From contig CDPCPM010000436.1 of assembly GCA_976551045.1 (NCBI GenBank), forward strand, positions 1,054,001-1,118,000: DNA of 64,000 nucleotides, written 5' to 3'. The notes beneath the pieces were generated by a model. The model did not search any database and was not told the DNA's origin. It saw nothing but the letters and a program-made list of their open reading frames with translations. Source of the DNA: Glaucostegus cemiculus (lineage: Eukaryota). Each line of letters opens with the position of its first letter. Position 1 is the stretch's first letter. Below, piece after piece: positions 999 through 63,870 of the stretch. The translations under genes and the position numbers were made by a program.

Positions 999-1327
999 GT
1001 AGCGTGTCCCGGAAGCCCTGGGTTCTCCTGCTCCCTCCCTCACAGGACCAAACCGGCTCGGGCTCGGCCACTCTGTCCTGCCTGGTGAGCGGCTTTAAGC
1101 CGGGCTTGGTGGCGCTGCTCTCGAGCGTGGATGGAGTGGAGACGGAGAGCGGGGTGACGACAAGCCCCGTGTCCCTGGACACCGACCAGACCTACAGGCT
1201 GAGCAGTTAACTGCGGGTCCCCGCCACTGCCTGGAACAAGGGCTCGAGCTACTCCATCAGTGTGAATCACAGCTCGCTGAGCTCGCCTCTGCGCAACACC
1301 ATCTCTTCGTCCGGCTGTGCTCAGTGA
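999..1327 (+). pseudogene. Ig light-chain constant exon, sigma-2/sigma-cart (type I/NS5-like), pseudogene copy 1
   Basis: Acceptor cacag|GT at 998/999. Reads GSVSRKPWVLLLPPSQ..SATLSCLVSGFKPG..TYRLSS*LRVPATAWNKGSSYSISVNHSSLSSPLRNTISSSGCAQ*, which matches my recollection of shark type I L-chain C. Lesions: TAA at 1208-1210, core Trp->Ser, second Cys->Ile. AATAAA at 1630-1635. Confidence 0.9.
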
Positions 1328-4300
1328 CGCCGCGCCAGTTGGCAGCACACGCGGATTCTTCGCTCCTGTTTAATGCAGTGAAACCCTCACTGGGTCTATG
1401 CAGAGCTTTGTGCAATGTAATCTTGGTTTGTCCGCTTCTAGGAACAAAAACGGAATGTTTAATGATTTCAAAAATTAGCGCGATGACTATCCGCCTTTTG
1501 AGCCATGTAATTCTCTGTCGAATTGTCCCCACTGTCCTGTGTCTGAACTTCCGCTGTGTGTAGAATAGGGAGACATCCTCCTGTAGACGGTAACCATGTT
1601 GTGTTGGGATCTTGTGTAACACAGCTCCTAATAAAGTGGAAATTCAGCGGTTTACGGTGGTCTATTTTTACTCAGCTGTCCACGGTACATAGAGGGGATT
1701 GGCAGCGAATAACATGGCGCCGAGGGTCACCTCACGCAGAATTACAGTCACATCAACTCAAACCCCTCATTCCGCCCCACCCGATCGATGCCGATCTCTA
1801 TGTCCTCCACCGGCCTCTTCCTTCTCGTCTCACCTCCCACCGTCATCGATTCTTCGTTTCCTCCACATGTCCACCCTGTTCCCCTCTGTAAATAGGCCTA
1901 ACCCCGATCCTTGCCCCAACCCTTCCCTGTGGGAGGGAAATACACTTTCTCCCTGCTCTTGACCAATCTCTGAATTCCCACTTTGGGAGTGTTGCACTGT
2001 GAGGGTCCTTCCCCTTGACTTGGCCCTTCCCTCCATCTGATGTTATAGATCCTCTCAGTCCGTCCACACAATACTTCCCGGGCACCAAACGGCCCCCATC
2101 AACCCTACCGATCATTATATTCTCGGGGACACACGACATTAATTTCTGTAACTTCTGATTATCGAAAACTGGCAGCTGCTCCCATCCGGGTCAAAGTACC
2201 TGCTCTCCTTCCTGTCTGCTCCTCCGGGGACACGGTGTACGGTTCCCTGTTTAGAAATCCTGGGAGTGAAGCATTTAAAGGTTGGGGGAGAGGAACATGA
2301 TAACGTAACACAGGGAAGCCGGAATAGACCATTCGGCCCCTTTGCACGCACTCTACCATTCTATATCATCACGGTGAATCTCTCACTCAGTGCCGACTTC
2401 CTGCACGAAGTCCTTATCCACTGATTCCTTTCCCATCTCAACATGTCTCAGTCTCTTGGAACTCTCCGCCTGTCAATGTTAATTCACTTTTTGGGCGTCA
2501 CCTGGATTTGTCACAGAGATGGAGTGGCTGAACCGTGAAACAAATGTTAGCTGACTGCAGTGCCCTGTGTGGCCCTTTTAAAGGGACAGCCTGTCTGATC
2601 AACAGGATGGGGTTTAGACAGGGTGTTACTGATAACACAGACTGCGGCTGGCAGCTCCATGCACTCTCATGTAGGATCTCACACTAAATATTATTGGGAA
2701 AGTGGAAGCGCGTGAATTGGAGGAATTAATTGGGGTTGGTCTGAAGGTGAGAGGTGGAGGGGAATAAATATAGGGAACGGCGGGATGAGTAAAGTGGTGT
2801 TCCCCAGAGATCTAGTTTGAACCTTATATCCCAACAATGCCCACAGATGATGAAATGGAGAAATGCACATCCAAGTGTAGAAACGGTTAACTGGTTAAGG
2901 GATGAGTTTCGGAGCAGTAGGAGGTTCCAACCAGAGGTGCAGAGTTTGAGGACAGGTTGATGTTTACTAACTTAAATTCACTGTGGAGGTCCGCGGTATA
3001 GCAGCGGTATCTGTCCAGTGCCGCTGTAATATTCTGGAAAAGGATCGTGGATTCCGGTCGTCGATGAAGTCGTTTGGACGACATTTGGGAGGGGAGTGGG
3101 TGGTGAAATGTTGGTGGTGCGGGGCTGAGCCTACTGTTTCTTTGACCATTAATTCCCACATTTATCACGGGCTCCCTCCACAATGTGTGGGCCTTCTGGG
3201 GTAGAGAGCGCACCGTCTGCGGCATCAGAAACAAAACAGACCATAAAATCAGAATGAACGCACATTCGGGGGACATTCCTCCCTCTGCTGGTTCCCTGCA
3301 ATCATAATTTATTTCACGTATCTTACCAATTTCCGAACAATACAAATGCATTTGTAAAAAAGTAAAAACGGAAAAATGAATGAAATTGTATTAAATATTT
3401 TAAAGCACTAATAATTCTGAATGTTTTAAATATCTTTGACAATTCTGCGGTTTTCCAATGCGTTTGAAAGCACTATAAAAGAAAAATCAATTAAATTAAA
3501 TACCTTAACGAACTGAGAACCCATAACAATTTTTTAAAGAAAATTTCAACTTCCATATAACTGCATTGACGTAAATCGTTAGAGTTATCAAGATTGGCGA
3601 TGGTTACATGTGATTTCCTATATTACTACTCTGTGTAATATGATTGGAATCACCGAACTGAAGCTCGGCTACATTTCCAGTCACTCTCATCACGTGGGCA
3701 GTGCACATCTTCCCAGCAATTTAAAATTCTGACGATTTCATAAAACAATTGTCCACCATTTATTCAACGTCCGTCTGTCAGTGCCTTGGTTGAAGGACCG
3801 AGTGACTTTCACCAGATTTACTGATATGCAAAGTCCGTTGAGTTTGCAGTTGGCCTTCCTGGGCCGCTTTTGTAGGGTAACAGGTTATTAGTACCTACAC
3901 CTGGTGTTGTTGCTGAATTACTCATACCTGGTGGTCCGTGTCATACAACGAATGTATTGTGGGTGCCTGTGGCTCTCACTGATCTGGCAAAAAGCGATAG
4001 CAGTGAAGATGCCCGTACCTTAAATGTGCACTTGTTCTGCGTTAGCGATCATATTTGTCCAATCAGCTTCTGGCTGATTCCCAAATTTCGAACACGGAAT
4101 TACTCCTTCTGTATGATCCAATATTTGCAATAAACGGATATATGTCCGGAGTACTGGGAACGTTTGTCAACATGTCAAATTGTTGCACAGCTCTCTGCTG
4201 AAGTGTAATAAGAAGAGAGAAGAGGTTGCGAAAAGGAAAGGTCAGGTAATTTCATCAAGTGTTTGCACTTGGTCAACACAGGGATTAGACGCCTTTGATC

Positions 4301-5179
4301 GGCGTCAGGAAGCCCATTACCTGACGACGTTGCTCCACAGTCCCGGTCAAGTGTGGGGTATCTGCCCCGCCACCACTTAACTTTCTTTCCAAGACTGTGG
4401 CCTGGGAGAGTATTCCCAATATTCCCATCCGCCGCACATCGTGCCGGGAATCCGACCCTTCATATTAATACAAGTCACCTGTCAATGTCGTCGTAGAAAA
4501 TGAAGATTTAGTGCAGATTAAACAAAGATACGTTAATGGGAAATGCTGGTAAGAGAGTGGAGCGGGAAGAGACCAGTTAGTGCAGTTTCGCTCTGTTTTT
4601 TCCATCATCTCCTGTTCCGTCACTGGGCAGAGTGTCTTAGATATCCACAGAGCACATGGATATCCACAGAGCCTTTCCCACCTCTGAATGTCACAAACCG
4701 ACTTTGCACCGGTCAACAGTTTAAAGTGAAATGTTCGCAAATTCACGGACGGAGGAGTTCGAGACTTCGGGAGTTACTGAGGCAGCGCAGGGAACTGGTC
4801 TCAAAACGGACGAATAACTGGGCAGCACTGAGTCCAGGGAACTGGGGAATGCATTGGCCGAGTGTTATGGTAAGCTTCACATAGGGCTGGACGGATCTAG
4901 AATTCTCTGCCAAAGAAAACATTTAATTGCACGCGGTGACCGCACAGGACGTCGGACCAAAAGCCAGGAGGTAGAGTTAGTTTGGACGGTTATTGTTGAT
5001 CAACAGAATTGGCGCTTCCTGCACCACGTTTCACCCAACTGTCTCAATAATCGGTGGTTTGTGATAATGTCCGTGGAGGAGTTCCTTTCTCCGGAGTGCG
5101 GGTCAATGTGTGGTGCTGCTGACGGATTCCTCCAACTGATGATGTTTCCTCCCCCCTCCGCGCCCTCTCTCAAACAGAG

Positions 5180-5508
5180 GTAGCGAGTCCAGGAATCCTT
5201 CGGTTCTCCTGCTCCCTCCCTCACCGGACGAAACCGGCTCGGGCTCGGCCACTCTGTCCTACCTGGTAAGCGGCTTTATGCCGGACTTGGTCGCGCTGCG
5301 CTGGAGCGTGGATGGCGTAGAAAGAGAGAGCGGGGTGACGACAGGCGCAGTGTTCCCGGACACTGACCAGACCTACAGGCTGAGCAGTTACCTGCGGGTC
5401 CCCGCCGCTGCCTGGGACAAGGGCTCGAGCTCCTTCTGCAGCGTGACCCACAGCTCGCTGAGCTCGCCTCTGCGCAACACCATCTCTTCGTCCGCCTGTA
5501 CGCAGTGA
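5180..5508 (+). pseudogene. Ig light-chain constant exon, sigma-2/sigma-cart, copy 2 (open frame but first Cys->Tyr, no V-J upstream)
   Basis: Reads GSESRNPSVLLLPPSPDETGSGSATLSYLVSGFMPDLVALRWSVDG..SSYLRVPAAAWDKGSSSFCSVTHSSLSSPLRNTISSSACTQ*. B-strand TGC->TAC. Acceptor altered (caaacagag|gt). AATAAA at 5628-5633. Confidence 0.88.
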
Positions 5509-8500
5509 GGCCACGCCAGTCGACAGCACACGCGGATTCTTCGCTCCTGTTAAATGCAGTGAAACCCTCAATGGATCTGTGCTGCGGCTTTGTGCAATGT
5601 GATTGTGTGGTGTTATCCGCTTCTGGGAATAAACGGAATATTTAATCATTTCAAAAATGAGCGCGATGACTGTCCACCTTTTGCGCCATGTAATTCTCTG
5701 TAGAATTGTCCCTACTGTCCTGTGTGTGGTTTACAGTGATGCTTCTTTACTCAGCTGTTCAGTGTACTTTGAGAGGATTGGAGGCGAATAATGTGACGCC
5801 CAGGAGCCGCTTGCCACAGAATTACTGTCACATCAGCTCAAACGTCTCATTCCGCCCCTCATGACCAACGCCGATCTCTGAGTCCTGTTCCGGCCTCCTC
5901 CTCCTTTTCTCACCTCCCGCCATCACCGGGATCCCCTATTTTTTGTTTCCTCCACGTATTTTATACTGTTTCCCCTTTTAAACACCCACCCCCGATCTTC
6001 GCTTCAAACCCACCCTGTGGGAGGGAGATCCACATTCTAATCTCTCTGACTTTCCCGTTGGGAGGGTCCTGTTCTGGGCACACAAGCTCAGGGACTGGAA
6101 TATTTAAGAGGTTGGGAGAGGAACCTAATAACATAACACAGGGAAGTCGGAATAGACCATTCGGACCCATTGCGCCCTCTCCACTATTCTATATATTTAT
6201 GGTGAATCTTTCACCTCAGTGCAAACTTCCTGCACTAACTCCTTATCCAATGATTCACGTCAGATGCTAACATATCTCAGTCGCTCGGAACTCCTCACCA
6301 GTCAATGTTAATTCATTTTGGGGACGTGACCTGGATTTGTTACGTGAGATAGAGTGGCTGAACCGTGAAACAAATATGCGCGGACTGCAGGGCGCGTGTG
6401 GCTCTGTTAAGGGCAGATCCTGTCTGCTAAACAGGGCGACAGGGGTGATCGAGCGCGTTAATGATAAGACAGACTGTGGGTCGAGGCTACACCCTTTCCA
6501 GACAATTATATGAATTTTCACACAAAAGATTATTGGGCGAAGTTTGATCGTGTGAATTGGAGGAATTCCTTGGAGTTCACTGAAAGGCGGGAGCTGGAGA
6601 GACGCAGGGATATGTGTATAAGGAACCTCGGGATGCGTAAAGTGGTGCTTCCCAGAGATCTTGTTTGTCCTTTATATCTCACTAAGCCTGCCGATAAAGG
6701 AATAGATAGGAGTAACTCCAAGTTTTAAAAACGGCCAAATGTCGGGACTTGTTTCTGAGCAGAGGGCGTTTCCAGCCAGAGATGCTGAGTTTGCGATCGG
6801 CTTGATATTGGTCAAGTGTGCATCACTGTAGAGGACTGAGCGTTATCCCGGTTGGATCCAGTCCCGCTGTTATATTCCAGAGCAGAACCGCAGATTCCGG
6901 TCGCTGATGAAATCGTTTGGACGTTAGTTTGGTGGGGAGGGCGATGGTGAAATGTTAGTGATGTGGGGCTACGTCAGGTGTTTCTTTGACTATTAAGTCC
7001 CATATTAATCACTCGGGACTTGATTCATTTCACAAAGTGTGAGCCATCTGGGGTAGAGAGAGCATCGCCTGCGGCATCAGAAACAAACCAAACCGTAAAA
7101 TGAGAATGAAGCGAACAATCGGTATATTCCGCCCTCTGCTGGTGATCTAAGGTATTGCTATCATAATTTTTTGAAAGTATCTGAACAACTTCCGATCAAT
7201 CCAAATGCGTCTGAAAAATTAAAAAGGCAACAGTAAATGAAATTGTATTTAATATTTCAAAGCACTAATATTTCTGCGTGTTTAAAGTATATTTGACACT
7301 TCCGGGGGTTTGCAATGCGTTTGAAAACATTAAAAATCAATTAAATTAAATTACAAAACAGAGACATAACACAAAATACAATAACGCAGTTCAAAGAAAA
7401 TTTCGACGTCCATATAACTACGTGCACTTAAAATGTTAGAGTTATCAAGATTGGGAAGGTTTAGACGTGATTTCCTAAATTACTACCCTGTGCAATATTA
7501 TTGGAATCACGGAACTGAAGTCCGTCTGCATTTCCAGTCACTCACATCACGTGGGCGGCGCACATTTTCCCAGCAAGGGCTTTTCTGACTATTTCATAAA
7601 ACAAGTGCCCGGCATTCATTCAATGCCCGTCTGTCAGCATCTTGGTTCAAGCAACCGAGTGGACGTTCACCAGATTTACTGAAGATGCAAAGTCAGGTGA
7701 TTTTGTAGTTACAACCTGTTGGCCTCCCTGGGGCGCATTTGTGGGGCAACGGGTTATTAGTACCTACACCAGGCAATGAATGTATTGTGGGTGCCTGTGC
7801 CGCTCATTGATCTGGCAAAAAAGCAAAAGGCATGAACATGCCCGTGCCTTGAATGTGCTTTTGTTCCGCATTAGCGATCATGTTTGTCCAATCAGCGTCC
7901 AGCTGATTCCCATATTTCGAACACTGATTTGTTCCTTCTGTATCAGCTTTAGCTTCTGTATTCAGCTTTTGGATCAGAACGAATCAGCATCTGGTTCAGC
8001 TGGGGAAAGTAATTCCTACTTTTCGAGCACATAATCGTCCCATCAGCATGATCTCATGTTTGCAATAACAGGTTTATGTCCGTAGTACTGAGGACGTTTC
8101 TCAAAATGACAACTCGTTGCACAACGCTCTGCCAAAAGGTAAAAGAAGGATTTGAAGGGTAGAGAAAAGGTCCGGTGCTCCAAGTTCCACTCGTGAACAA
8201 ACGGTGGCAGTAGAGAGTCGACACGCCAGCCTGTAAGGAACACGGCAGCCATAAGACATTGGAGCAGAATTCAGCCCATTTGATCGTGGCTGTTTCATTT
8301 TCCTTCTCAACTCCATTCCCTTGCCTTCTCCCCGTAACCTTTGACGCCCTTACTAATCAGGAAACTATCAACGAATTAAATATACCGAGTAACTTGGCCT
8401 TCACAGACGTCTGTGGCAATGGCAGCTCTAATCATTTACTATGGTGAAGATTGAGGATTCGCTGTCAGCTCTGCTCTCTGGGGAGAATCCCTGGGTGCTA

Positions 8501-20370: not shown

Positions 20371-20639
20371 CTCTGTGACCTCCGCTGTTCGCCCCAACTG
20401 TTCCCTGCAGGAAAAGGATCGTAGTCTCACAGTTTTCTGGGAATGGCTTCAACTGACTTTCCTGCTTTATCCAATGCCCTTCAGTGATGACGTCCAGTTC
20501 AGGTGTACACTTCTCCTCCCCCACTCTCAACACAACCATCCCCACCTGGAAAAATCTTCTCCACGCCCACTCTATTGAAAGCTTTCACAATTTTAAAAAA
20601 TACCCCCATCAGGTCGCCCTCACTGCCCTCACTTATATA

Positions 20640-21530: not shown

Positions 21531-21713
21531 TAAACTTTTCTGGCCGGATTTGTCTTTCCCGATAAATCTAACCATAGACCTCTCGTCTTCACACCCAAGA
21601 GTTGAACACAGCGCAGAGGACTCCAAGTGTGATCTGACCGACGCGAGTAGACGTGCACTTTAAAAAAATGTATATCTGCAATCTGTGTTCCATCTGTGTG
21701 TATCGGGCCGTGC

Positions 21714-21736
21714 GTAAACAGGAAACCCACAGCGCG
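21714..21736 (+). promoter_or_regulatory. Gene A promoter block GTAAACAGGAAACCCACAGCGCG (FOX/ETS/RUNX-like)
   Basis: 179 bp upstream of the ATG. 21/23 identical to the block upstream of gene B. Confidence 0.65.
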
Positions 21737-21892
21737 CCTCTATCTGTTTCCAGTACAACTGAACATTTATTAAGAAACATTGCGTGTGATTTTCGTAAGT
21801 TGCAATGCATCTTATCTCTCCTTCGCACCGACCTCACAAACCAATGACACGCGTCAGCGATTAACTGCCAGTGTTTAATCCGCTCACGAACA

Positions 21893-21935
21893 ATGAGCTG
21901 CTTCGCGGTCTTCGCTCTCTCCCACTTATTGCAAG
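21893..21935 (+). CDS. Gene A exon 1, leader MSCFAVFALSHLLQ
   Basis: 43-nt hydrophobic exon with G|gtgagt donor. Same length as the gene B leader. Confidence 0.82.
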
Positions 21936-35373: not shown

Positions 35374-35377
<4 letters not shown>

Positions 35378-35417
<40 letters not shown>

Positions 35418-35455
35418 ATCTATGCTATCTATCTACCTACCTATCTATCTGTCTG
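35378..35455. repeat. (TC)n/(TCTA)n microsatellite
   Basis: Visible directly in the sequence. Confidence 0.9.
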
Positions 35456-48900: not shown

Positions 48901-51900
48901 GGTGTTCAGTGCACTAATATCCACAGTGAGATCAGCGTGTACTAACATGCCAGTGCATTTCGAGATCAAGAAGGATGTAGTGTTGTGTCCGATGGTGAAT
49001 TAATGTGAGTAAGTCCCCAGTAGCTCATCGGACTTATCCCAGAGAGGGAAGAAAGATTTATGGGGTCATGATGCATATCTTTCTATGCTCTCTAGTCCCA
49101 GGCGAGGTCCTGGAGGACTAGAGAATAGCCAAAGTGTTTCTTTGAAAGAAATAAGGAGGTGTTGCACGTTGGGAGGCCAAATGTAGGGTAAAATGTACAG
49201 TTAATGGCAGAGCTCTTAACAGCATTATATACAGAGGGATCTTGGGATCTTAGCTCCCTGAAAATGGCAACACAGGTAGAGTGCTAATGAGGGCGGATGG
49301 CATGCTAGCCTTCTTTTGTTGGGTAGAATGAGTACAAGAGTCAACAGGTCATGTTTCAGCTGTATAAAGCTTCAGTTGGGCCGCACGGTGTACTCTGTGC
49401 AATTCTGATCTCCCCGTCAAAGGAAGAATGGGGCGGCTTTGGAGTGGGTTCAGAAGAGGTTTACCAGGATGTAGTCTGGATAGATGGTATTGTCTACAAG
49501 GAGACGTTGGACTGCTTCCTCTGGAGTATCTGAAGCTGAAGGAACACTGGATAGAAGTTTATAAAAATGCGAGAGTCATACATTGAATAGTCATTTAGAA
49601 TCTATTCCCCGGGTAGAAATCTTTAATATTACACTGCATGGAATTAAGATGGAAGAAGAAAGTTTGAAGCAGATGGGCGGGGCAGGTTGTTTTTTACACA
49701 GTGAGTGCTAGATGCTTGGAATGTGCTGCCAGGAGTGGTGGTGGAGGCATTTGCAATACTGGCATTTTTAAAAAAAAAAGATTAGACAGGAATATGAATC
49801 TGCAGAGAATGGAGGGATATGGATTAGTGCAGAAGTGATTAGTTTGCCATCATGGTCGGCACAGACATCTTGGGCCGAAGAGACTGTTCCCGACCTGTAC
49901 TGTTCTATGTTCTATCTCCAACGCTACTATATCCTTTCCTAGGTAAGGGGACAAAAACTTCCTTCCATCAGCATGAAGTATCCCTCATAATTATCACCAC
50001 AAACACCACAAAAAACTCTTACCCTCCTCCAGGGGTGCCTGTGACAGCAGTGTGAAGCAGGTACAAGATACATCACTCAACAGAAACCTAATCTGTTTAG
50101 GTTACTCGGACAATAATTCCCAGTGCCACCAGAAAAGTCACGATGAAGGGAAGGCTATATATTTCCAAGTTTCACACCATTCTAACTTGGAAACACATCG
50201 CCTTCCCATCATCGTCGCTGTGTTTAATTCCTGGAAGTCCCTCCCGACAGCACTGTGGGAGCATCTTCATCACAGCGACTGCAGCGGTCTAAGAAGGAGT
50301 TTCACCCTCAACTTATCAAAGGGCAATTAGGGGTGGGCAACAAACGTTGGTCTTGTTAGAGATAAGCAGGTCCCCAAAATAAATTAATGCAAATTAACAC
50401 TGACTGTGGCCTCAGTAAACCAGCAACTCTTCCAACGGACACCACAAATGAGTGTCAGTCTTTTCTGTGCAAAACCTTGTTTTACCTTGATGTGTTTCTG
50501 TGATGGGACGGGACACGCTCTTTGTCCTCGTCTTGCCCGCACCCCCAAACTGTGCGATGCAGGTACAGACACCGCCACTCCTCCAGGTTTCCGGCGGGAC
50601 CAGCACTTGATTTCTGACGCTGTAGCTCCGGTCCGGGTCACGTGTACCGGGACCGCTCCGTCCTCCTGTAATCTCTCCCGAAATATTCCAGTAAATGACA
50701 ATCTGGGCGGAAGAAAGGCCGCTGACTTGACACACCAAGGGAAACGACCCGTTCGTCTCAGACGGCGGGACAAACACCAGAAGACCAGTCCGGTTGGTGG
50801 AGCTGTCTGGGCAGAGATTTGGACACCGTTAACCACAGCTTCACCTGGATTACATGGCTGTAAATTACCCGACCGTCACCTTCTCTTACCTCCAACCAGA
50901 AGCGTGGGTCCCTTCACAAGCGGTGAATAGCTATTCCAGTCGGCACAGTAGTAGGAACCCGAATCCTCCAGCTGGACGTCCCGGATTTCCAGTACCGACC
51001 TGTAATCGCCGAGGCCTTTTTTGTACGTAGCCCGACAGCCGGTCTGTTGACAGTCTCTGGTCGCGATCGGTACCGGGGGTTCCTCCGCACGCTGTTTGTA
51101 CCATAGAGCAGTGCTCGGGACCAGCAGTATGTACGCCAGTTCACAGGACAGTTCAACCGTCTGACCGACATCCGCAGTCACTGCACCCGGACCCGCAGAA
51201 AAAGGCTCGGGTTCTGTAACTGGAAACATCATCAGTACATTAAAATTGTCCATTAAGAGAACTGAAACACTTTGCCCGCAGTTTAAGAAATGCGTGTCAT
51301 TTTAGGTTGCTTTTATTGCCTAAGGTGTCTTTTCAACAGCTACTGGAAGACCAGAAGATACATCCACGTTAGCCTGGTCAAATTCGCAAAACCTTTCTCT
51401 GATTCATTTACAGGATGTATGTGTCGATGGCAAGACTGGTTTGCTCATCCATCCATAGTTGACTTTACACTGAGACGTTTGCTGGCATATTTCCACCAGG
51501 ACTCGCCAAACATTCTGCTGTGAATCTGGAGTTGCTTATTGGACGGAGAGGTTTAGTGAGCCGATGTCCTACCCCAAACGAAAATGAGCGAGATCAAGCA
51601 GTTTTATTTTTAACATAAATGAGCTTCTCGTTTTGTACTCTAGATTTAATTAATTAACTTATTTTTATTTCACCAGTTGCTTGGGAGTGTGGACGCGGAG
51701 AGATGGGGTGAGGGACGCGTGAGTAACTTACTCCGGATCATTGGCCTGAGCTCCTGATTTTATAACATCCTCACGGGTAACAGACCTGCGCAGTGCTTTC
51801 TCCCAGTATTTGCGGCCGATGCAGTCTAACCGTACCCACAACCCGGACTCACTCACCGCAAAACTGGAACATCAGGATGGCAATGACCAATGATAAAGCT

Positions 51901-51911
51901 TCTGTCAACAT
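42888..51911 (-). CDS. Gene C: non-rearranging VJ-C1-TM-ITIM receptor (301 aa). Exons 51911-51857, 51219-50890, 50806-50486, 46323-46231, 43245-43196, 42944-42888
   Basis: All introns GT-AG with phases 1,1,1,1,0. 906 nt in frame with no internal stop. Confidence 0.87.
43196..43245 (-). CDS. Gene C exon 5, cytoplasmic GNRRQTERRQEQSTATQ
   Basis: ctaatacgcag| acceptor and CAG|gtacgt donor, phase 1 to 0. Confidence 0.75.
43600..45930 (+). mobile_element. Decayed CR1 ORF2 and 3' end in a gene C intron
   Basis: NYRPVSLTSVVGKLLE; SGVPQGSVQGPLLF..YINDLD..KFADDTKIGG. Confidence 0.92.
46231..46323 (-). CDS. Gene C exon 4, transmembrane DWCPPATLFASGILVFLLILISVSICIIRGS
   Basis: tttctacag| acceptor and G|gtgagg donor. 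Uncharged hydrophobic span. Confidence 0.85.
46395..46735 (-). mobile_element. CR1 3' end
   Basis: SQRLFPRA..TRGHGFKI..FFTQRVVGAWNALP with an (accataga)n tail. Confidence 0.88.
48900..49915 (+). mobile_element. Decayed CR1 fragments
   Basis: GEVLED..., QLYKASVGPH, 3' UTR ending ctgttctatgttcta. Confidence 0.75.
50486..50806 (-). CDS. Gene C exon 3, C1-set domain
   Basis: LLVFVPP..FPLVCQVSG..IVIYWNISG..DRSYSVRNQVLVPPETWRSGGVCTCIAQF. Confidence 0.93.
50890..51219 (-). CDS. Gene C exon 2, V domain with fused J-like G strand
   Basis: GQTVELSC..LWYKQR..SVLEIRDVQLEDSGSYYCADWNSYSPLVKGPTLLVG|gtaag. Confidence 0.95.
51857..51911 (-). CDS. Gene C exon 1, leader MLTEALSLVIAILMFQFC
   Basis: Hydrophobic 55-nt exon with G|gtgagt donor. 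Confidence 0.82.
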
Positions 51912-53650
51912 CTGGACCCTGGTCGGCTGGCGCTGCGCTCACTCCCAGCGGTTGGAGTGTGTGGCGAGTGTCCACAGTTCAGCCGCGGCTGTGTACAGCC
52001 TCTCAGCTGCCGTGGCCTCTACTCATTGCTGAGGTTCCGGGGCCGGACCGCTCCAACCATCCTGTCCCTTGTGCGGGTTGCACCTGGTGACGGTGTCAGT
52101 GCGTCACAGGGTCAAAGGGCTAATGGAAAGATTTACTGGAGGATTGTTCAGATCATGGTTGGGCATGTCTTTTCGGAATGTAGAGAAGGGTACAACTGGC
52201 CAAACCAGGATTCATTTCCTCTTGCCTAAATCGTTCGCAGAAGTTGGCGTTGAGTCGACTGTCTGCATGCAGTACAGTCCTTCTGATGAAGGCACTCCGT
52301 GCGGCAGAGGAAGAAGTTCCAGGGTTTAGAACCAGTGGCTTTGAAGGAACAGAAATCTATTTCCAAGTCGGGGTCATTCACGACTTGGAGAGCAACCTGC
52401 AGGTGGCGGTGTTCCCGTGCCTGCTGCCCGTTGAATTTCTTGGCTAGGGTCTGGGGGAGCATTTGGCGTGATCTGGTCGAGCAACTGCAGTGCATTTGGC
52501 AAAACTACTTTGTACTGGATGACACTGAGCTTGTGTTGTCAACACTGCACTGACACAAGTAAAGAGTATTCCATCGAAATCGTGACCTTTGACTTGCAGA
52601 TGGTGGAAATGGTTTGTGCCTCTTGAAGTGTTACTTGCTCTGGTATTCCCAGCCTCTGGCCCGTTCTTGCAGCCACCATATTCACATAGCGTCAGGAGTT
52701 TCTGATCAATGATGACTGCATGGTGTTGATTTTGGGGGTTTCAGCGAAGAGCCATGAAATATCAAGTCCATCTTGTTGTGGATGATCAGTGCCCTGAGCT
52801 TTTGTACCTCCAGTGTTAACTTTCTCTTTACTGTTTCAGACCAGATCGTTGTTTACATTCCGATTCCCGGTAAACAGGACGTAACAGAGGACACTGTAAC
52901 TGAGGTTAATTTCCACAGAACTACTCACTGTTCAATTGAACCCACTCTGGGCGCTGCAGTGCGTTCCAGCGCGCCGTTCGACGTGAAATCTAATGGGTTG
53001 ACCTTTGGGCAGTCGCGCCCAAACCACGAAAACAGGAAACCCACACAGATCTCCAGTTCGTTCACTTTTTCCACTCAAGCGATAATCGTGATGAGATACT
53101 TGGTCATCGATTGTTGCACTTGTTTACGGGTCTTTGAAGTGTCTGAATGCGGGAAAAGCGAAATAGATGCAAGTCTCCGAACGTGAGCGAAGCTGTCTGT
53201 GAGTTTAACCCCAGCAGTCCACCGGCCATCTCCCTGCTGCCAGCTCGCCCTGCCCTCTCTAAATCATAGGCTGACCCGTTTCCTTGTCACTGAAAGTCAA
53301 ATCCCTCGCCAGCACAGATTCAGTCATTTGCAACATGGTTATTTCAGCCCAAAACCAGAAATTACATTGTGAATTGAAACGTCAACCTTTTTCACTTTTC
53401 TCTCCTCTTTCCCGTTCTACCAAGCTGACCGCCACTGCTAAGGGATACTGCAAACAAAAAAACCAACAATGCGGACGATCCGTTCGTCCCCTATCCTCTC
53501 TGTTGTTCATTCTACTCTGTAGTAACTTCCTCTCACGTCTCGCCATCTCACCCCACCTCTACCTACTTCCGTTCTTTTCCCTGTCGTGAGACCATCTATT
53601 TTCACCTTAAATCCATCGCTGTTGTTCACCACCTCAAGCGAGCTACGCAT

Positions 53651-56600
53651 TCACAAGATCACAAGATCACAAGACAAGGGAGCAGAAGTAGGCCATTCAG
53701 CCCTTCGAGTCTGCTCCATGAGAAGAAGAGAAAAGATAACATATCTATCCCTAATTTCCAGCCTTATCCCCATATCCCTTGATACCTTGATTAATTAGGT
53801 ACCTATCCAACTCCCCTTTAAATGCCCCCACTGACTGAGCCTCTACAGCTGTATGTGGCAGAGAATTCCACAATTCCACCACCCTCTGACTAAAGTAATT
53901 TCTCCTCATCTCTGTTTTAAACTGGTTCCCTCTGATTCTAAGTCTGTGCCCTCTAGTCTTGGACTCATCCACCAAGGGAAACAGCCTATCCATATCTACT
54001 CTATCCATTCCTTTCAACATTCTAAACACTTCTATGAGGTCCCCCCTCATTCTTCTGTACTCCAATGAGTACAGTCCAAGTGCCGATAAACGTTCATCAT
54101 AGGTAAGCCCTTTCATACCAGGAATCATCCTTGTAAACCTCCTCTGAACCCTCTCCAACATCAGCACATCCCTTCTAAGGTATGGGGCCCAAAACTGCAC
54201 ACAGTATTCCAAATGAGGACGTACCAGTGCTCCATAGAGCCTCATCATCCCTTCCCTACTTCTATACACTATACCTCGCGAAATGAACGCCAACATAGCG
54301 TTCGCTTTCTTTATCGCCGATCCGACCTGGTGGTTGACTTTTAGGGTGTCCTGCACGAGTACCCCCAAGTCCCTTTGTACTTCCGTACTTCCAATTTCCT
54401 CCCCATCTAGATAATAATCTGCCCGTTCATTTCTTTAGCCAAAGTGTACTACAGCACATTTGTCAACATTGAATTTCATCTGCCATTTCTTTGCCCATTC
54501 ACCTAACCTATCCACGTCTCTCTGCAGCCTTCCTGCCTCTTCTATACTCCCTGCTCCACCGCCAATCTTGGTGTCATCCGCAAACTTAGCGGCAAAACCA
54601 TTTACTCCATCATCCAAATCATTAATATATAAGGTGAAAAGTAGCAGGCCCAACACCGACCCTTGCAGGACACCACTAGTAACCGGTCTCCATCTAGAAC
54701 AGGGTCCTCTTATTCCTACACGTTGTTTTCTGCCTACCAGCCAATGCTTGACCCATTTTAATATCCTTCCTGTAATTCCATGCGTACTCATCTTATTGAT
54801 CAACCTCTGATGCGGCACCTTGTCGAAGGCCTTTTGAAAGTCTAAATACACAACGTCCACTGCCTCTCCCTTATCCACTCTACCTGAGATTTCCTCAAAA
54901 AACTACAATAGGTTGGTCAGGCAAGATCTTCCCTTTACAAAACCATGCTGGCTTGGACCTATGCTGTGTTGAATCACCAGGTATTCCGTAACATCATCCT
55001 TGAGGATCGATTCCAGTATCTTTCCCACTACTGACGTCAAACTAATTGGTCTGTAATTACCTTTATGCTGCCTCCCACCTTTCTTATACAGTGGAACTAC
55101 GTTCGCTACTCTCCAGTCCTCCGGAACCATGCCGGAGATCATTGACTCCTGGAAAATAATCACTAATGCCTCAACAATCTCTTAAACCACCTCCTTCAGA
55201 AACCGAGGGTGCACCTCATCCGGTCCTGGTGACTTATCGGTCTTTAATCCACCTAGCTTCCTGAGCACTTTCTCCCTAGTAATCTCAACGGTACTCAGTT
55301 CAATCCCCTGGAACCCCTGTCTATCTGGTATATTTCTGGTATCCTCCACAGTGAAGATCGATGCAAAATACTTATTTAGTTCCTCTGCCATCTCTGTATC
55401 TTCTATTATAATCTCTCCCACACCATTTTCAATTGGTCCTATATCAACCCGTGTCTCTCTTTTACACCACATATATTAAAAAAAACTTTTAGTATCTGTG
55501 TGACTGTTATCTGCCAATTTCCTTTCGTAATTCATCTTTTCTTTCCTAATGACCTTCTTAGCTTCTTTCTGCAGGATTTTAAATGTTTCCCAATCCTCAG
55601 TTTCCCCACTTATTTTTGCTACCTTGTAGAACCTCCCTTTTGCTCTTATCTTAGCCTTAACCTCACTTGTTACCCACATATGTGCCTTTTTTCCATTCAG
55701 AACTTTCTTTTTTCTTGGAATATACCTATCCTGCACCTTCCTTATTTCTTGTAAAAACTTTATCCATTTCTGCTCCACCGTCTCACCTGCTAACTTACTC
55801 TTCCAATCGATTTGAGACAGTTCCTCTCTCATACTGCTGTAGTTTCCCTTGTTCCATTGCCATATATGTGCACCAGTTATGAGCCTCTCCTTTTCAAATT
55901 TGACTCCAAACTCAATCATATTGTGATCACTGGTTCCTAATGGTTCCATTACTTATAGCTCCCTAATCAGCTCTGGTTCATTGCACAGTACCCAGTCCAA
56001 AATGGCTGATCCCCTGGTGGGTTCATCTACAAGTTGCTCCAAAAAGCCATCCTGTAGACATTCTACAAACTCAGTTTCCTGCGATCCACCTCCTCGCTGA
56101 TTTTCCCAATCTACCTTCAGGTTGAAGTCCCCCATAATTATCTTCACTTTGCCCTTTTGACGCGCCTTTTCTCTTTCTAACTGTATCTTATAGTCCTCCT
56201 CCCGGCTGCTGTTCGGGGGTCTATATATAACTGCAATTTGCGTCCTTTTACCCTTGCTATTTCTTAGCTCCACCCATAAGGATTCCACTTCTTCCACCCC
56301 TATGTCCTTCCTTTCTATCGATTTTATATTATTACTGACCATTAGGGCTACACCAACCCCTCTGCCTACCCTCCTATCCTTCCTATACACCGTATAGCCT
56401 TGGATGTTCAGTTCCCAATCACATCCGTCAGTAAGCCATGATTCGGTGATTGCCACGATATCATATTTTTTTAACTTGTAGCTGTGCCCCGAGGTGATCA
56501 ACCTTGTTCCTAATGCTACGTGCATTAAAATACAGTCCTTTTAGAATAGCATCAACTACAGATATTGATGAACTTCTACTGATCTCTAAATTATCCTTAC

Positions 56601-58150
56601 CTTCCACCCGCCTGTCCTTCTTACCATCTTCACTACACGTCGACTTGTTCCCGTATACCTTCTCATTTAAGCTAAGCTGGTTTCCTTCGTCTTGCCTGAT
56701 TAGTTTATCCAACTTTTTACTATTATGGCCTCTACTCTGCTTCTCCTTCCTCAGAGCCACTCTGTCTGTTAGATCTGCCTGTAACCTCTACATCCTCTGA
56801 CCTGCCCTCCTGGTTCCCATCCCCATCGCCAACTGGTTTAATCGCTCATGAACCAACCAAGCATACCGTGCTGCAAGGATATCTGCCCCCCTCTGGTTGG
56901 GGTGTAACCCGTCCTCTCTGTACAAGTCCCACCTTCCCCAGAAGACGTCCCAGTTATCCAATAATCTAAAACCTTCTACCCTGCACCAGTTTCGCAGCCA
57001 CGTATTTAATTGCCACCTTGCCCTGTTCCTACCTTTCCTATCACGTGGCACCAGTAGTGATCCTGAGATTTCTACCCTTGAGGTCCTGGTCTTCAGCTTT
57101 CTGCCTAGCTCCATAAACTCCCTTTGCAGAACCTCATCCCTCTTTCTACCTATGTCATTGGTACCAACATGAACCATGACTTCTGGCTGCTCTCCCTCCC
57201 GCTCGAGAATCCTGTGAACCCGATCAGTAATATCATGGACCCTGGCACCTGGGAGGCAACATACCATCCGGGATTCATGTTCACTTCCACAGAATCTCCT
57301 ATCTGTTTCCCTGACTATCGAGTCCCCTATCACCACTGCATTTATCTTCCCCTTTTTCCCCATCTAAGCAGTAATACTGGTCCTCGTGCCAGTGACCTGG
57401 GTACTAGTGCTTGGTCCCTGCAGGCTATCTCCCTCCACAGTTTCCAAAGTTAAAAACCTGTTATTGAGTGGAACAGCCTCTGGGGTTCTCTGCACTGTCT
57501 GCCTATTCGTTTCCCCGTTCATTTTCCCTCCCCTGACAGTCACCCAGCTATCTACTACCTGGCCCCCTGAAGTATCTACTCTAAGTGGGGTGACTGTCTC
57601 CTGATGTGCCGCATCAACATAACTCTCTCCCTCCCTGATGCTCTACAGTGTCTGAAGCCGTGACTCCAGCTCATCAAATTTGAGCCGAAGTTCCTCCAGC
57701 CTCACACACTTACTGCAGAAGTGGTCAACGTGAACCTCAACGGGGTCCACGTCCTCCCACATCAAGCAGCTGCAGCACTGCACCATACCCTCCATCTTTA
57801 GTTCCCCTTAAACCTGGTTTGTCCAACTATGTAACTTCAACAGGTAAGCCTTACCGTTACTTACCAGTAACTCCCCTGCCTCGCCCCTTCAAGCCGAAGC
57901 CCATTGAGCCAAACCCGAACACTCTGCTCCCCCCTCACTCCGCTGCCCGCTCCAGAAGCTGGTTGCTTTTTAAGCTGCCCGCGTGGCGCCTGCGCAGTGC
58001 GGCCCTCACTCGACCCCTTAGAGCTTATATAACCCTACTAAAAATAACTTCTAAATACTATCTAACACTAATATCTTACACCCTTGTTAAAAATCTTACT
58101 CTACACTTACACTTTAATAAAAAAAAATAGAGAAAAATACTTAGCAGTTT
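53651..58150 (-). mobile_element. Near full-length CR1 LINE with ORF1 (zinc finger, leucine zipper, SGNH esterase) and ORF2 (APE endonuclease + RT), lightly disrupted
   Basis: ORF1 from 57795: MEGMVQCCSC..CSKC..L-zipper; GDSIVR..CCLPGA..HVGTND..DGLHPN. ORF2: YFNARSIRNK, AITESWL, MGDFN, SDHNMI, YRPISLTS, DFQKAFDKVP, KFADDTK. (tcacaaga)n 3' tail. Confidence 0.97.
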
Positions 58151-60439
58151 CTGAAGTCCTCCGAAGTTCCCCGAGGTCAGAGCATTCTTCCCGCACTCAT
58201 AGATTTAAATATTTCCCAGTTTCCACTGTAGATTTATGAGGGATTATCTTGATGACCGGCCGGCCCCCACTCCTCCTTGTTTCCTCCACAAGTTGATTCT
58301 ATACCATTATACCATTTCATAACTTTATTGCCTTCCTCTTTGTCCAAATTTCTTGCCAGGTATAATCTCTGAGTTCTGGTATCGTTCTTGTAAAACTTTT
58401 CTTTGTATATTTTCCTAGTCTTTCATATTGTCCAGACCAGAACAGTGCAGAGCGCTCGAGGGCCAATACAAATATATCTCATTTTCTTGATCGTTACTTA
58501 TATGTTTTCTTTATGTGGATGATTGGGACAGTGGTGTGGGTCGTCTCAGGAGGAGAGACCTTGGGATGAGAACATTATCATAAGTAGATCCCTTCGCTCT
58601 GTAGAAGCTCACAATTTCATAGGTGTTTCTAATTTTCTCAAACTGCACCTTACCGCGGCTCTACGTGGACTGAAGTCCATTTGCCATTACTTACTTGATG
58701 ATTGTTCTTATCATTCTCAGCCATTTTCGGTATTAACAACGTGAGCTGGTTTCGTGCTGACGACAAATTCCATGGATCCATTCTGAAAATGTGGACAGCG
58801 ATGTAAAGAACCGGACTCGCACCTTTCCTGACCTGGAGACATCCAGGGGCGGGGGGGGGGGAGTTTATTTGTTGATGCATTTCCTGAGATGTGCCAGTCA
58901 ATGGCAAAGTCAGAAAGCGTTTCCCATCTCTAACTGCCCTTGAGAAGATTGGGATATACTGTCGCAGTCTATCTGCTGAATGCATTTCCTTGGCGCTGCT
59001 GGGAAGACCCGGCCCCTATGCTTCCAAATGAGGATGGAGAGGGAATGGAATGGAAACCTGCAGGTGGCGACGCCAAGTGTCTGCTGCCCTTCCCATTCCG
59101 GAGCGTAGTCATGGGATACTTTCGGAAGAGACCAGGTTAACGATTCATTCAGGAAACGACACCCTGGCCAACACACCACACCCTAGTAGTTCGTTAGTTT
59201 CGAGCTCTTGAAGTAGGGGAGGATTGGCTTGAACCTGCTGAAGAATTACCTACTAACGGTTCAATACATCAATCGCGGTCCATTCAGTTATGCCTGGTTG
59301 TTCTCCTGTTCCACCAACAGCACCCCGCCCCCGCCCCCGCCACCCCCGACATACACAGCTCACTATTGAAGATTTGGACCAAATTTAGCAGCAGGTAAAT
59401 TCTTTGGTCACGATTGAGATGACATCGGAAACTACACGGTAGCATCGTCCAATAGGATGGGAGAGAATTGGACGATTTGTCCACCCGCTGTCTGAGCGGA
59501 GACCCAGAGCGTTAAGTACACACCGACATAAGATACAGGAGCAGGAGCGGAGACATTCATCTTCTCAGCCTAATCGTGATTCATCAGGCCCATATTCTAA
59601 CTCATGCACCACATTCCAACCGTTTCCTCTTTTCCCTTGATCTCTTTAATGCACATCATCCTATGGATCTCACCTTTGAATCCGACCAATGACCAACACC
59701 CTTCGCAGGGAGAGAAGATTATATATTCATCGCCCCTGCCTTAAAGACTTCTTTTCCTAAATAGCCTGTCCCTTATCCCAGCTTTGGACTCCTTAGGCAG
59801 AAGAAACATCCTCCCGAATCCACACCGTCAAGCGCCTTGATATCGAAAGCTAACCCAAAGAAAGCAGGGAAGGTTGGTCATTGTAAACAGTTTCAGAGAC
59901 AGAGATAGAGATAGAAGTGAGTGTGTGGGGGGTGGGGGGGGGAGAGAGGTGGTGAGGAAAGCGGCGGTGTCGAGGAAAGTAGCACCGATGCCAGGACAGC
60001 TCCATGTAACCGAGAGCCAGTTCTGGGGTTCACTGTGTGTGTTTGGGGTCGAACTGCCCTGCCTCTTCCTCAATCAATCCCTTCATCCCTCGTGTCAACC
60101 CAGTGAACCTTCTCTTCACTACCTCCAATAGGAACACGTCCTGTCTTACACATAAAGACCAAAATCACAGGCAGTGCTCCAGCTGTTGTCTAACGAGCGG
60201 TCTGCGGCTTGCACAGAGTAGTTTTTGCAACAAAGAGCAACATTCCATTCACCTCTTTGATTACTGGCTGTATCCTGCTAACACTCTTCCTGCTAACATT
60301 CCTTCTTCATATTTTCTCACATTACATTCCGTCTTTTGCATTTGTTTAACTCATCGATAACTGTTTAGTGCTTTTGCTAATCCAGCTGACTTCGTTTCAC
60401 CGGTAAATCTGACGCATATCACACAGCCCCGTCATCCAA

Positions 60440-62250
60440 GACACATAATGAGGGTCCAGTATATTCTGACGCGAAAGAAGGACAAGGCTGACAGGATTGG
60501 GGGACTTTGGTTGACGACGGATATTGAGGCTGTTGTCAGGAAAGAGTTGGAGGCGTATGTCAAGTATAGGAATCTGTGATCAAGCGGATCCCTTTGATTA
60601 GTATAAATTATGTAGATGAAAATCAGGACGGCAAAAAAGAGGACATGAAATAGCCCTGGCATTCATAAGAAAATCATAAGAGATTCTATAAGTAAGGATC
60701 AACGCGGCCATTTATCTGTGGAGCCATGGGAGACGGGCGAGGTCTTAAATCGATATGTCTTATCTATATTTACGGTGGAGAGGGTACTGAAAGCCGGGTA
60801 TTTAAGACGAATGAATTGTGATGTCTTGGACACATCCATATTACATAAGAAGGTGCTGGTGGTCTGAAATCCAATGACATCGGATAAATCTCCGGGGCCT
60901 GACCAAGTGTATCCTGGGATCTGGTGGGAAGCCAGCAAATACATTGAATGGGCCCTGGCAGAGACATTTGCATCACTTTTATCTACGGGTGAGGTACCGG
61001 AAGACTAGAGGGTGGCAAATGTTATGCTTTTATCTTAAAGGGGCTGCAGGGAATATCCAGGGAACTACAGGCCGGTGACCTAACATCAGTGGTTGCAAAG
61101 TTACTGGAGGGTTTTCTGAGGAACAGGATTTACCAACGTTTGGAAAGGCAAGGAATGATTAAGGATGAACATCGTGGATTTGTGAGAGGGAAGTCGTGTC
61201 GCACATTTGAAGCGGTGACAGAGGATTGACGAGGCCAGGTCGGTGGACGTTTTCTACATGAACCTAAGCGACGATTGGCAAGGTCCCTGGTGGTAGGCTG
61301 GTCCGGAAGATTTTATCACATGGAATCCGGGATGAGCTAGCCAATTGAATACAAAATTGTCTTGGTGGAAGAAGTGGTAGAGGAAGGATTTTTTTTTACT
61401 GATTTGAGGTTTGTGTCAGCCAGAGTGCTAAAGGGATCCCTGCTGTGTTCACTGTTGTTTGTCATCCATATGAACGATTTTGATGAGAATGTAGTTGGCA
61501 TGTTTGGTAAGTTTGTAAATGAGAACAAAATTGGTGATGCAGTGGACAGTGTAGAGGGTGTTCTGTAATGACAACAGGATCCGGAGAAGTGGACCAAAGA
61601 ATGGTAGATGGTAGTTAACTCGGACAGTGTTTCAGTTTGCTTAGTTAAACCAGAGCAGGACTTACACAGTAAATCGTAAGGCTCTGGAGAATGTTGGAGA
61701 ATAGAGAGAACAAGAGGGGAAAGGAACATAGTTTCCTGAAAATTGACACACAGGTAGGCATGGTAGTGAAGAAGGCATTTGGCATACTTACCTTCATCGG
61801 ACGGTGCATTGAATACAGGTGTTGTGACGTCATGTTAGAGCTGTACAAGTCCTTTGTGAGAGCAGACCTGGAGTGTTGTCGTCCAACCAGAGTAAGGATG
61901 TCATTAAGCTGGAAGGGTGTCGAAAAGGTTCACGAGGAGAGTATGAGTTATCAGAAGACGCTGGACAGGTTGGTCTTCTTCCCACGTAGTACAGAAGGCT
62001 GAGCGGTGACCTTACATTGGTATATAAAATCATGAGGGGCACAGATGAGTTGAAAGGTCACAGTCTTGTTCCTCGGTTCGAAGTAATATATTTAAGATTA
62101 GAATTAATGTATTTAAAAGACATCTAAACAGGTTCATGATAGTTAAGCTTGAGGGAAATATGTACCAATTGCAGGCAAATTAGACAAGCTCAGGTAGACA
62201 GCTTGGTCGTCATGGACGTGTTGGACCGGAAGGCTGTATAACTCTATCAA
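60440..62250 (+). mobile_element. Decayed CR1 ORF2 and 3' end
   Basis: KSPGPDQVYP, NYRPV, VVKKAFGILTFIGR..LYKSFVR remnants. Confidence 0.88.
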
Positions 62251-62269
62251 CGGGAAAACAATATATGAA

Positions 62270-63870
62270 GTCATGGAATAATTGTTTGCTGGGAGAAAGA
62301 GCATGTCCCTAAAGATTTGAATGACTGGGAATGTCTAGAAGTGCATCAGAAATTGTGCTCATTCAAAATAACTTAAGGAAACCACTTCCAAATCTTTCCA
62401 TTTATAAAGTAAGTCCATACTATCTTGTTAACTCAAATGTTTTAAGCATTTCAGTTATTTGGAACTGTTCATAAATGACGAATACGTGAAAATAAATGTG
62501 TTTAAGAGTCATAGAGTTATACAGCACGGAAACAGACTCTTCGGACCAACAGGTCCATGCAGACGAAAATGCCCATCTACTCTCACCCCATTTATCAGCG
62601 TTTGGCCCATATCCCTCCAAACATTTCCAATTCATGGACCTATCGAAATTCCTTTTTAAAGTCTTTGTGCTTTTAGTTCATAAATTTATTTCCCTTTTAA
62701 GTTTTAAATGTTTTCGAATGCATTCGAATGCCACAGAAATTTCAAAGATATTGAAAAATATTTAGTATGTTAATAGCTACATCTGACCAGCTGTGGGCGT
62801 GTTGTACCCGAATTCACTTCATTCTCATTCTTCGGGCGCAGTTTGTTTCGGCTGTCCCAACGATGCCCTGCACACCCCAGATCACTCACTCGTTGTGGAG
62901 GTTGAACATAGATCGTGATTTCCACGGGAGTCGGTGGTAACAGGATCCAGGCGCAAACCTACACCACCCTTCCTCCTCTCCAACTACTGTCAGAATTTAA
63001 CGGCATTGTGTGCAATGAGCTTTGGAAAAAGAAATCTCACAAGAGTTGTCCATGTCCGTATTCTGCACTTTCTGAGAGAAAATGTAAAACAGGAATGGAT
63101 CCTTTCCAGATTTACAGTGAAGTACACGTGTCAAATAACAAACCATTCACTAACTCCTCGTCTCTGCTTGGAACGTCCTGCTCTTCCTGTGCACGTCCTT
63201 GCTTCCTCGACCATTTGAAAACTTGCATTTACAGCTCTCTGTCCATTCATCCGTGGGATTGGTGAAAACTATGGTACATACAAGAACCCTGGGGAGCACC
63301 ACTCTTGACATTCCCCGTTCGATGCATTTGCTCCACCCCCTTCAGCTCTTATATTTCTATCAATATACAGCTCAAATTAGACTCCCTCTAATAGCACACC
63401 CTCCCATTTTACCCATTGTTATTCGGGGGAAAAAAATACTGAATTTGTTTTGAGTAGAGATAACTATCGTCCACAGACACCCGCAAGTCTGCCTGACTAG
63501 TGATACCATCAATAAATGCCCCTGTGTTCATGAAAGAGATCTACCTCTTACAGAGCCATGCAGGCCCTGCGATCAGCTCATAGTTACGTCAGAGTGTAGC
63601 CGCTCTATACTTAGGGTCAAATACAAGAAACTTCCCTACATGTGGAGACCCTCCCACTGAGATGCGGAAGCTTGATACGCTTTTGGATATTAATGGGATC
63701 AATGAATAAGAGTTAACGCACAACGCGCCGGATGGTCTACTCCAACCTTTGTGTGTTATGTTATTATGTTCCTCTCCCCACGACCTTTTAAATATTCCAG
63801 TGCCGGAGCTTCCGTACACTGAACCGGACAATGTGTCTCAGGAGGAACAGATTGGAAAGTGAGCAGATAC
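62270..63870 (-). repeat. Diverged inverted paralog of the IgL C 3' flank (about 2230-3720 and 6060-7580)
   Basis: Ordered matches on the minus strand: actggaatatttaaag..ggagaggaacataataacataaca (63750-63810 vs 6090-6140), tatctttgaaatttctgtggcattcgaatgc (about 62720-62750 vs 3430-3465), and acattcccagtca (about 62325 vs 3671). Confidence 0.7.

What the first reader, a model, noticed from the sequence alone, without database searches (positions are those of the whole stretch)
999..63870. Receptor cluster appears embedded within an IgL sigma-2 locus
Seen: sigma-2 C exons lie 16 kb upstream of gene A. At the opposite end, 62.3-63.9 kb is an inverted, diverged copy of the C-exon 3' flank. Inference: another light-chain cluster on the minus strand should have its C exon about 0.4-1 kb past the window end, so the receptor genes would be bracketed by convergent IgL clusters. 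Tight linkage of non-rearranging VJ-C1 receptors to a rearranging-receptor locus is what a common-ancestor model would predict.
Basis: partly seen in the sequence, partly recalled or inferred. Interest (0 to 1): 0.75.

Follow-up and report, generated by a model that had tools for sequence, protein, structure and literature searches.

The report
Ray light-chain and receptor mirror array
In this ray genome, genes for antibody-shaped receptors that never reshuffle (likely a two-chain inhibitory receptor) alternate with pre-joined antibody light-chain genes in a mirrored block repeated six times, and the two gene types likely have been neighbours since before sharks and rays split; the extra light-chain gene predicted just past the window is not there.

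Summary
The C exons are sigma-2 (86% to the Pristis protein a paper uses as its sigma-2 reference), and 62.66-63.90 kb is a real inverted 58% copy of their 3' flank, found only on this contig. But no C exon lies past the window: the next is 76 kb away, and all six copies of this flank lack one. It is an orphan relic in the spacer of a palindrome. The window is one arm of a ~165 kb mirrored unit [IgL IgL A> B> <C | C> <B <A IgL IgL] repeated six times over 1 Mb, holding 25 sigma-2 C exons and 37 VJ-C1-TM receptor copies. The sigma-2 genes are germline-joined here, so this locus does not rearrange. Receptors and sigma-2 share a sequence record in 9 of 11 sharks and rays; in sawfish their accessions are consecutive. 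The receptors are a jawed-vertebrate-wide family (PRARP-like, recalled), form their own clade, and lie among human 1q21-22-type genes. Linkage is old and was not found in the library searched, but does not show common ancestry: sigma-2 also sits beside IgH elsewhere.

The parts
998..1327 (+). IgL sigma-2 C exon 1, pseudogene (in-frame stop, second Cys lost); its joined VJ exon, with 3 stops, lies just left of the window (contig 1053635-1053979)
2174..4114 (+). 3' flank of C exon 1 (74% to the flank of C exon 2)
5179..5508 (+). IgL sigma-2 C exon 2, open frame but first Cys replaced by Tyr and no V upstream
6066..7943 (+). 3' flank of C exon 2
21893..29967 (+). Gene A, intact: leader 21893-21935, VJ 22662-22988, C1 26045-26335, TM 28131-28250, tail 28350-28408 and 29935-29967; all AG/GT; tail YxxL motif (DTYAQL)
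34905..40620 (+). Gene B, pseudogene copy: leader 34905-34947, VJ 35662-36000 (2 stops), C1 from 36091 (2 stops, truncated), TM 36863-36979; tail pieces near 37.1 and 40.55 kb (3' end approximate)
42888..51911 (-). Gene C, intact: leader 51911-51857, VJ 51219-50890, C1 50806-50486, TM 46323-46231, tail about 43245-43196 and 42944-42888; canonical ITIM (ILYASL)
   Evidence: the first tail exon read by eye from the output, where my bounds were one base off
18927..62054 (.). Part of the window mirrored in the next arm (contig 1127.6-1191 kb), about 78% identical
62659..63897 (-). Orphan inverted relic of a sigma-2 3' flank (58%), in the unmirrored spacer; present in all 6 units at 90-96%, never with a C exon

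Best explanation
The window is one arm of a mirrored ~165 kb unit, repeated six times, in which germline-joined sigma-2 light-chain genes alternate with a trio of non-rearranging VJ-C1-TM receptor genes whose A and C chains likely pair into an inhibitory receptor; the 62.7-63.9 kb block is likely the leftover flank of a light-chain cluster deleted before the amplification. SHOWN: the map, the copy counts, the absence of a C exon beside any orphan flank, joined VJ exons, intact genes A and C with tail tyrosine motifs, homologues from chimaera to birds. INFERRED history: (1) receptors and sigma-2 were neighbours in the shark-ray ancestor, among 1q21-22-type genes; (2) an old inverted sigma-2 cluster beyond gene C lost its coding exons (flank 58%); (3) the IgL-A-B-C block was duplicated head to head (arms 76-78%); (4) the mirrored unit was copied in tandem (87-95%). 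INFERRED function: A and C form a TCR/Fab-like heterodimer signalling through ITIM-type tails; their copies stay open and vary mostly in the V loops, while most B and many IgL copies decay, so selection on A and C probably drives the array and IgL partly rides along. On origin I favour, modestly (about 55 to 35), a sigma-2 cluster settling beside an older receptor pair over the two being tandem descendants of one pre-RAG gene at this spot.
For: Map of contig 124-1382 kb: six units, A 13 copies, B 12, C 12, sigma-2 C 25, sigma-2 V 17. Forward arms cover 46-60 kb of the window at 87-95%, reverse arms 35-38 kb at 76-78%. Orphan flank in 6 of 6 units, next C exon 64-76 kb away, no remnants. No RSS-like site between 185 and 1308 kb, whereas TCR/IgH-type V exons fetched from other contigs show heptamer-nonamer tails by eye; all skate type I genes are joined (PMC2192082 abstract). 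V and C1 exons without stops: A 12 of 13, C 12 of 12, B 1 of 12; 9 of 25 IgL C exons have an open full VJ and both Cys. Pooled dN/dS: C1 exons 0.37 and 0.21, V frameworks 0.51 and 0.30, V loops 1.4 and 1.14. Same record for receptors and sigma-2 in 9 of 11 species with both lengths on record; consecutive accessions in Pristis (XP_051901910/911), near ones in Hypanus (XP_059837141/146/157). Receptor C1 domains form one clade (100/99), sigma-2 C groups with other light chains. Fold of stingray C-type with A-type ectodomains: score 0.64, best of 3 controls 0.23; mark reached by 51 of 78 solved and 2 of 108 mismatched pairs (eukaryotes 39 of 65 and 2 of 126); runs agree in at least 81% of contacts, partner pLDDT at least 79. 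Second address of sigma-2: beside psmb5 in great white (Table S1), flanking IgH in gar.
Against: Linkage in other species rests on identical record lengths and accession numbers, not coordinates; 4 of the 9 are whole chromosomes of 170-252 Mb; Amblyraja and Narcine differ (their sigma-2 proteins lie on ~1.9 Mb scaffolds). The complex resembles solved Fab/TCR pairs, so the pass may be from memory; homodimers were not folded. Gene A's motif is not a canonical ITIM (Asp at -2). dN/dS values are pooled over related copies, loop bounds were set by eye, no significance test. AU tests do not reject receptors plus sigma-2 as one clade (V p 0.35; C p 0.25; all IgL p 0.42), and no TCR C domain was in the C tree. 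I cannot check that the great white 'sigmaprime' label is right. A deleted C exon is inferred from its flank alone.
Confidence: 0.75

Rival explanations
1. Ancestral linkage: receptors and sigma-2 are tandem descendants of one pre-RAG VJ-C1 gene, and this 1q21-22-type block is a surviving paralogue of the original antigen-receptor complex.
For: Linkage spans sharks and rays; the family is as old as jawed vertebrates; same leader/VJ/C1 exon plan; AU tests allow receptors as sister to light chains; linked horn shark clusters look split: 7 of 9 RefSeq models lack an in-frame J.
Against: Best trees give no special tie to sigma-2; sigma-2 also lies by IgH/PSMB5; the published complex in stingray is on chr 26 with LOC13238 numbers, not the record that holds these genes; no data for bony vertebrates or chimaera.
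Confidence: 0.3
2. One reading: an intact minus-strand sigma-2 cluster has its C exon 0.4-1 kb past the window.
For: The flank homology and its orientation are real.
Against: No C, UTR, intron or V remnant in this or the other five spacers; next C exon 75.8 kb away.
Confidence: 0.02
3. The receptors are sigma-2 genes that were joined in the germ line and captured TM and tail exons.
For: Germline joining is common here, and another family in this genome does nest with sigma-2 V (99/95).
Against: Receptor V and C1 fall outside sigma-2; C1 identity to sigma-2 about 32%, no higher than to other Ig C exons; orthologues in birds and sturgeons, which are not listed with sigma-2.
Confidence: 0.05
4. 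The matching blocks are independent insertions of a repeat, or the array is an assembly artefact.
For: One short piece of the left flank is dispersed; palindromic arrays are hard to assemble.
Against: 23 of 23 matches of the right block lie on this contig; units differ by 4-13% and carry their own lesions; stingrays and mantas also hold many copies.
Confidence: 0.05

Closest known systems
PRARP pair (Fu et al. 2019, J Immunol 202:1992; title seen in a reference list; content recalled)
   Same: Two types of non-rearranging VJ-C1-TM genes with tail tyrosine motifs; homologues of both types found in bird or turtle, amphibian, lungfish, coelacanth, sturgeon/paddlefish.
   Different: Here in elasmobranchs, with a third gene (B, from the A type), 12-13 copies each, interleaved with sigma-2. 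Not compared with the chicken sequences themselves.
IgL sigma-2 (sigma-cart, NS5, type I), germline-joined as in skate (PMC2192082 abstract)
   Same: VJ-C clusters, joined, many copies; C 78-86% to named members.
   Different: Arranged in a mirrored unit with receptor genes; 16 of 25 C exons broken or without an open V; every copy found in this genome lies on one contig.
UrIg / UrIg2 and the antigen receptor complex (PMC12227049)
   Same: Non-rearranging VJ-C1 gene linked to antigen-receptor genes; same type of argument.
   Different: UrIg2 is a multi-C homodimer linked to IgH/TCR-alpha-delta/PSMB5; here one C1, ITIM-type tail, a separate clade, another contig (UrIg2 on C1037) and other neighbours.

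Membership tests
IgL sigma-2 | C exon closest to named sigma-2/type I chains | tested here: met
   86% to XP_051901911 ('Prpe IgLS2'), 78% to skate type I; clade 100/99
IgL sigma-2 | V groups with sigma-2 V | tested here: met
   97/91 (V taken from the array at contig 1250 kb; no IgL V lies in the window)
IgL sigma-2 | V-J-C minicluster | tested here: met
   17 V exons, most about 1 kb before a C exon; 8 or more C exons lack an adjacent V
Rearranging antigen-receptor locus | Split V and J with RSS | tested here: not met
   13 of 17 V exons read through J in one piece, 2 shift frame at the joint, 2 are truncated; no RSS-like hit in the array
PRARP (features recalled) | Single exon with V and J-like segment, no RSS | tested here: met
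PRARP (features recalled) | V-C1-TM-tail with ITIM/ITSM | tested here: met
   Pfam V-set and C1-set; gene C ILYASL canonical, gene A DTYAQL non-canonical
PRARP (features recalled) | Own clade with orthologues in bony fish, amphibians, reptiles, birds | tested here: met
   C1 clade 100/99; V clade 87/93, not starred
PRARP (features recalled) | Orthology to the chicken PRARP1/2 sequences | not testable with these tools
   Paper not held; no record carried the name
PRARP (features recalled) | Homo- or heterodimer at the cell surface of lymphocytes | tested here: inconclusive
   Model supports A-C pairing, possibly by likeness to Fab/TCR; expression untested
UrIg/UrIg2 | Three or more C1 domains; groups with UrIg | tested here: not met
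   One C1; separate clade

The most novel reading that the evidence does not exclude
This is a second surviving antigen-receptor complex: a two-chain, TCR-shaped but unshuffled inhibitory receptor has sat beside a light-chain locus since the first jawed vertebrates and is the closest living model of the pre-RAG VJ-C1 heterodimer; rays have turned it into a mirrored array that offers about 12 x 12 germline chain pairs with diversified loops, a combinatorial repertoire without recombination.
Probability: 0.2. Interest if true: 0.8.

Novelty: new variant of a known kind. Interest (0 to 1): 0.55.

Why it matters
Non-rearranging VJ genes linked to Ig or TCR loci are the main genomic evidence for where adaptive receptors came from. 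This adds a locus with both partners, conserved across sharks and rays and outside the published complex, and it makes the question testable with existing assemblies (is the link present in chimaera, coelacanth, bichir, turtle?). It also gives a multi-copy, loop-diversified inhibitory receptor family in rays that databases label 'uncharacterized' or as Ig chains. It matters less if sigma-2 simply moved in.

Tried and rejected
C exon past the window: blastn and four nhmmer profiles, none. Rfam on the window: 0 matches. Expression: no RNA holder listed, so no reads were laid. TCR-alpha C family search rang nowhere, controls included, so the C tree has no TCR. PDB search with the C exon could not tell isotype. 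ESM Atlas gave only generic V+C1 clusters. Literature: searches returned no paper describing this linkage; the term PRARP with immune terms occurred only in PMC10751288, whose supplement has no prarp, smg5 or tdrkh; the Table S1 search found none of the receptor LOC numbers tried. Fu 2019, Ohta 2019, the UrIg paper and Saha 2014 are not held, so absence from print is not established; their text and supplements may bear on it. Flank annotation covered the 300 longest of 851 candidate frames; contig bases 1-124000 were not fetched (genome searches gave no copy there).
Full report
1. Observation. The window is contig C436:1054001-1118000 of a 2.85 Gb genome; its genes are closest to sawfish and other rays. 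Two light-chain C exons lie at 998-1327 and 5179-5508. The second is 86% identical to Pristis XP_051901911, the accession PMC12227049 uses as sigma-2, and 78% to skate type I; type I, NS5, sigma-cart and sigma-2 are one isotype. Both window copies are broken. The block 62659-63897 aligns inverted to both 3' flanks at 58% over 1.2-1.3 kb, E about 1e-39, score 107 against at most 17 in 100 shuffles, and 23 of 23 genome matches are on this contig. One 120-base piece of the left flank is dispersed.

2. The prediction. I fetched contig bases 124001-1381866. The bases where the C exon should be hold a GT microsatellite and unrelated sequence. The next C exon is 75.8 kb on. Profiles for C, UTR, intron and V find nothing in any of six equivalent spacers.

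3. What is there. From 249 to 1252 kb the order A> B> <C, orphan flank, C> <B <A, then two minus and two plus sigma-2 C exons repeats six times, ending in three intact plus clusters; the first unit has no IgL on its left and the last reverse arm has an extra partial A and a second C-less flank. Counts: A 13, B 12, C 12, sigma-2 C 25, sigma-2 V 17. Forward arms match the window at 87-95%, reverse arms at 76-78%; the mirror ends at window 62054, so the orphan flank lies in the unmirrored spacer. Falling identity gives the inferred order: old inverted cluster (58%), head-to-head duplication, tandem amplification.

4. The genes. A and C are intact six-exon genes (leader, VJ, C1, TM, two tail exons) with AG/GT sites, a Cys near the membrane and a tail tyrosine motif; B is broken here. 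V and C1 are free of stops in 12 of 13 A, 12 of 12 C and 1 of 12 B copies; 9 of 25 IgL C exons have an open VJ and both Cys. Pooled dN/dS is 0.2-0.5 in C1 and V frameworks and 1.1-1.4 in V loops (11-12 copies each; copies with stops or split over two fetched stretches left out; no significance test). The sigma-2 V exons are joined to J and a scan found no RSS in the array, as in skate (PMC2192082, abstract). A stingray C-type and A-type ectodomain fold together with score 0.64 against 0.23 for the best of 3 controls (mark reached by 51 of 78 solved and 2 of 108 mismatched pairs; contacts agree at least 81%; partner pLDDT at least 79); Fab and TCR pairs are solved, so this may show likeness only.

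5. Other species. Receptor and sigma-2 proteins carry the same record length in Pristis (9.4 Mb), Stegostoma (9.7), Rhincodon (10.8), Hemiscyllium (11.7), Heterodontus (22.1), Hypanus, Hemitrygon and two Mobula (170-252 Mb), and differ in Amblyraja and Narcine: 9 of 11. Species with only one side on record were not counted. Accessions are consecutive in Pristis and close in Hypanus, Stegostoma, Rhincodon and Mobula; accession order is only a proxy for position. In Heterodontus 7 of 9 RefSeq sigma-2 models lack an in-frame J, as split genes would. A profile search reached V-C1 relatives; ten looked up were from hawk, two turtles, caecilian, lungfish, coelacanth, elephant shark, sawshark, paddlefish and sturgeon.

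6. Neighbourhood. Left: EST1-domain, relaxin-3-receptor-like and HlyIII-domain genes; right: KH, LINGO-like and Sema genes. I read these as TMEM79, SMG5, RXFP4-like, PAQR6, TDRKH, LINGO4 and SEMA4, a human 1q21-22 set; names and human position are recalled. The published complex (IgH, TCR-alpha-delta, UrIg2, PSMB5) is elsewhere: stingray chr 26; UrIg2 here is on contig C1037.

7. Does linkage mean common ancestry? Receptor C1 domains are one clade (100/99) apart from Ig, UrIg and MHC II; sigma-2 C groups with other light chains; receptor V domains group together (87/93) outside sigma-2, lambda, sigma, TCR and IgH V (labels of the unnamed comparison exons recalled from motifs, except UrIg2 V). 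Sisterhood with sigma-2 or all IgL is not rejected (p-AU 0.35, 0.25, 0.42). Sigma-2 also lies about 350 kb from psmb5 in great white and flanks IgH in gar. So the receptors are not recycled sigma-2 genes, the link predates the shark-ray split, and its deeper age is open; I lean to secondary arrival.

8. Literature seen. PMC12227049: abstract, passages, section 6, first part of the discussion and of the reference list, first of two parts of Table S1, supplement searches. PMC10751288: passages, section 12, supplement search. PMC2192082: abstract. PMC4279169 and PMC5985310: passages. Fu 2019 and Ohta 2019: titles only; what I say of PRARP is recalled. Nine searches found no description of this linkage, but the most likely papers are not held. 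Two earlier notes of this scan on shark windows reach the same reading; they are leads, not support.

9. Verdict. New variant of a known kind; interest 0.55.

Noticed in passing
G000:C157:2.3-3.9 Mb (L148-L150, L158): An array of another light-chain type (sigma by recalled motifs); 3 of 3 V exons looked at are joined to J in the germ line.
   Followed up: partly
G000:C506 and C67 (L153, L154): Joined VJ exons of a multi-V family nest with sigma-2 V (99/95); one sits in an open frame of 1872 codons.
   Followed up: partly
window 50890-51219 (-): Gene C V domain has an extra Cys pair; one of them is invariant in 26 of 26 C-type sequences from sharks to turtles. A and C both end the C1 core with CxC.
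   Followed up: no
L006:2155-4633 and L007:2497-5956: A second C-less sigma-2 flank (85% to window 1757-4247) and an extra A copy lacking its TM exon in the last reverse arm.
   Followed up: partly
L003:9441-10000 and L004:1-762: The only one of 12 gene B copies with open V and C1 exons.
   Followed up: no
L018:8564-8911 (-) and its five sister copies: The minus-strand sigma-2 V lineage has Asp in place of Tyr after the core Trp in every copy, with open frames.
   Followed up: no
window 53754-56540 (-): A LINE-type retrotransposon copy with long open stretches of endonuclease and reverse transcriptase (type read from motifs).
   Followed up: no
G000:C50:1.63-2.88 Mb: About 40 lambda-type light-chain C exons, mostly plus on the left and minus on the right.
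   Followed up: no
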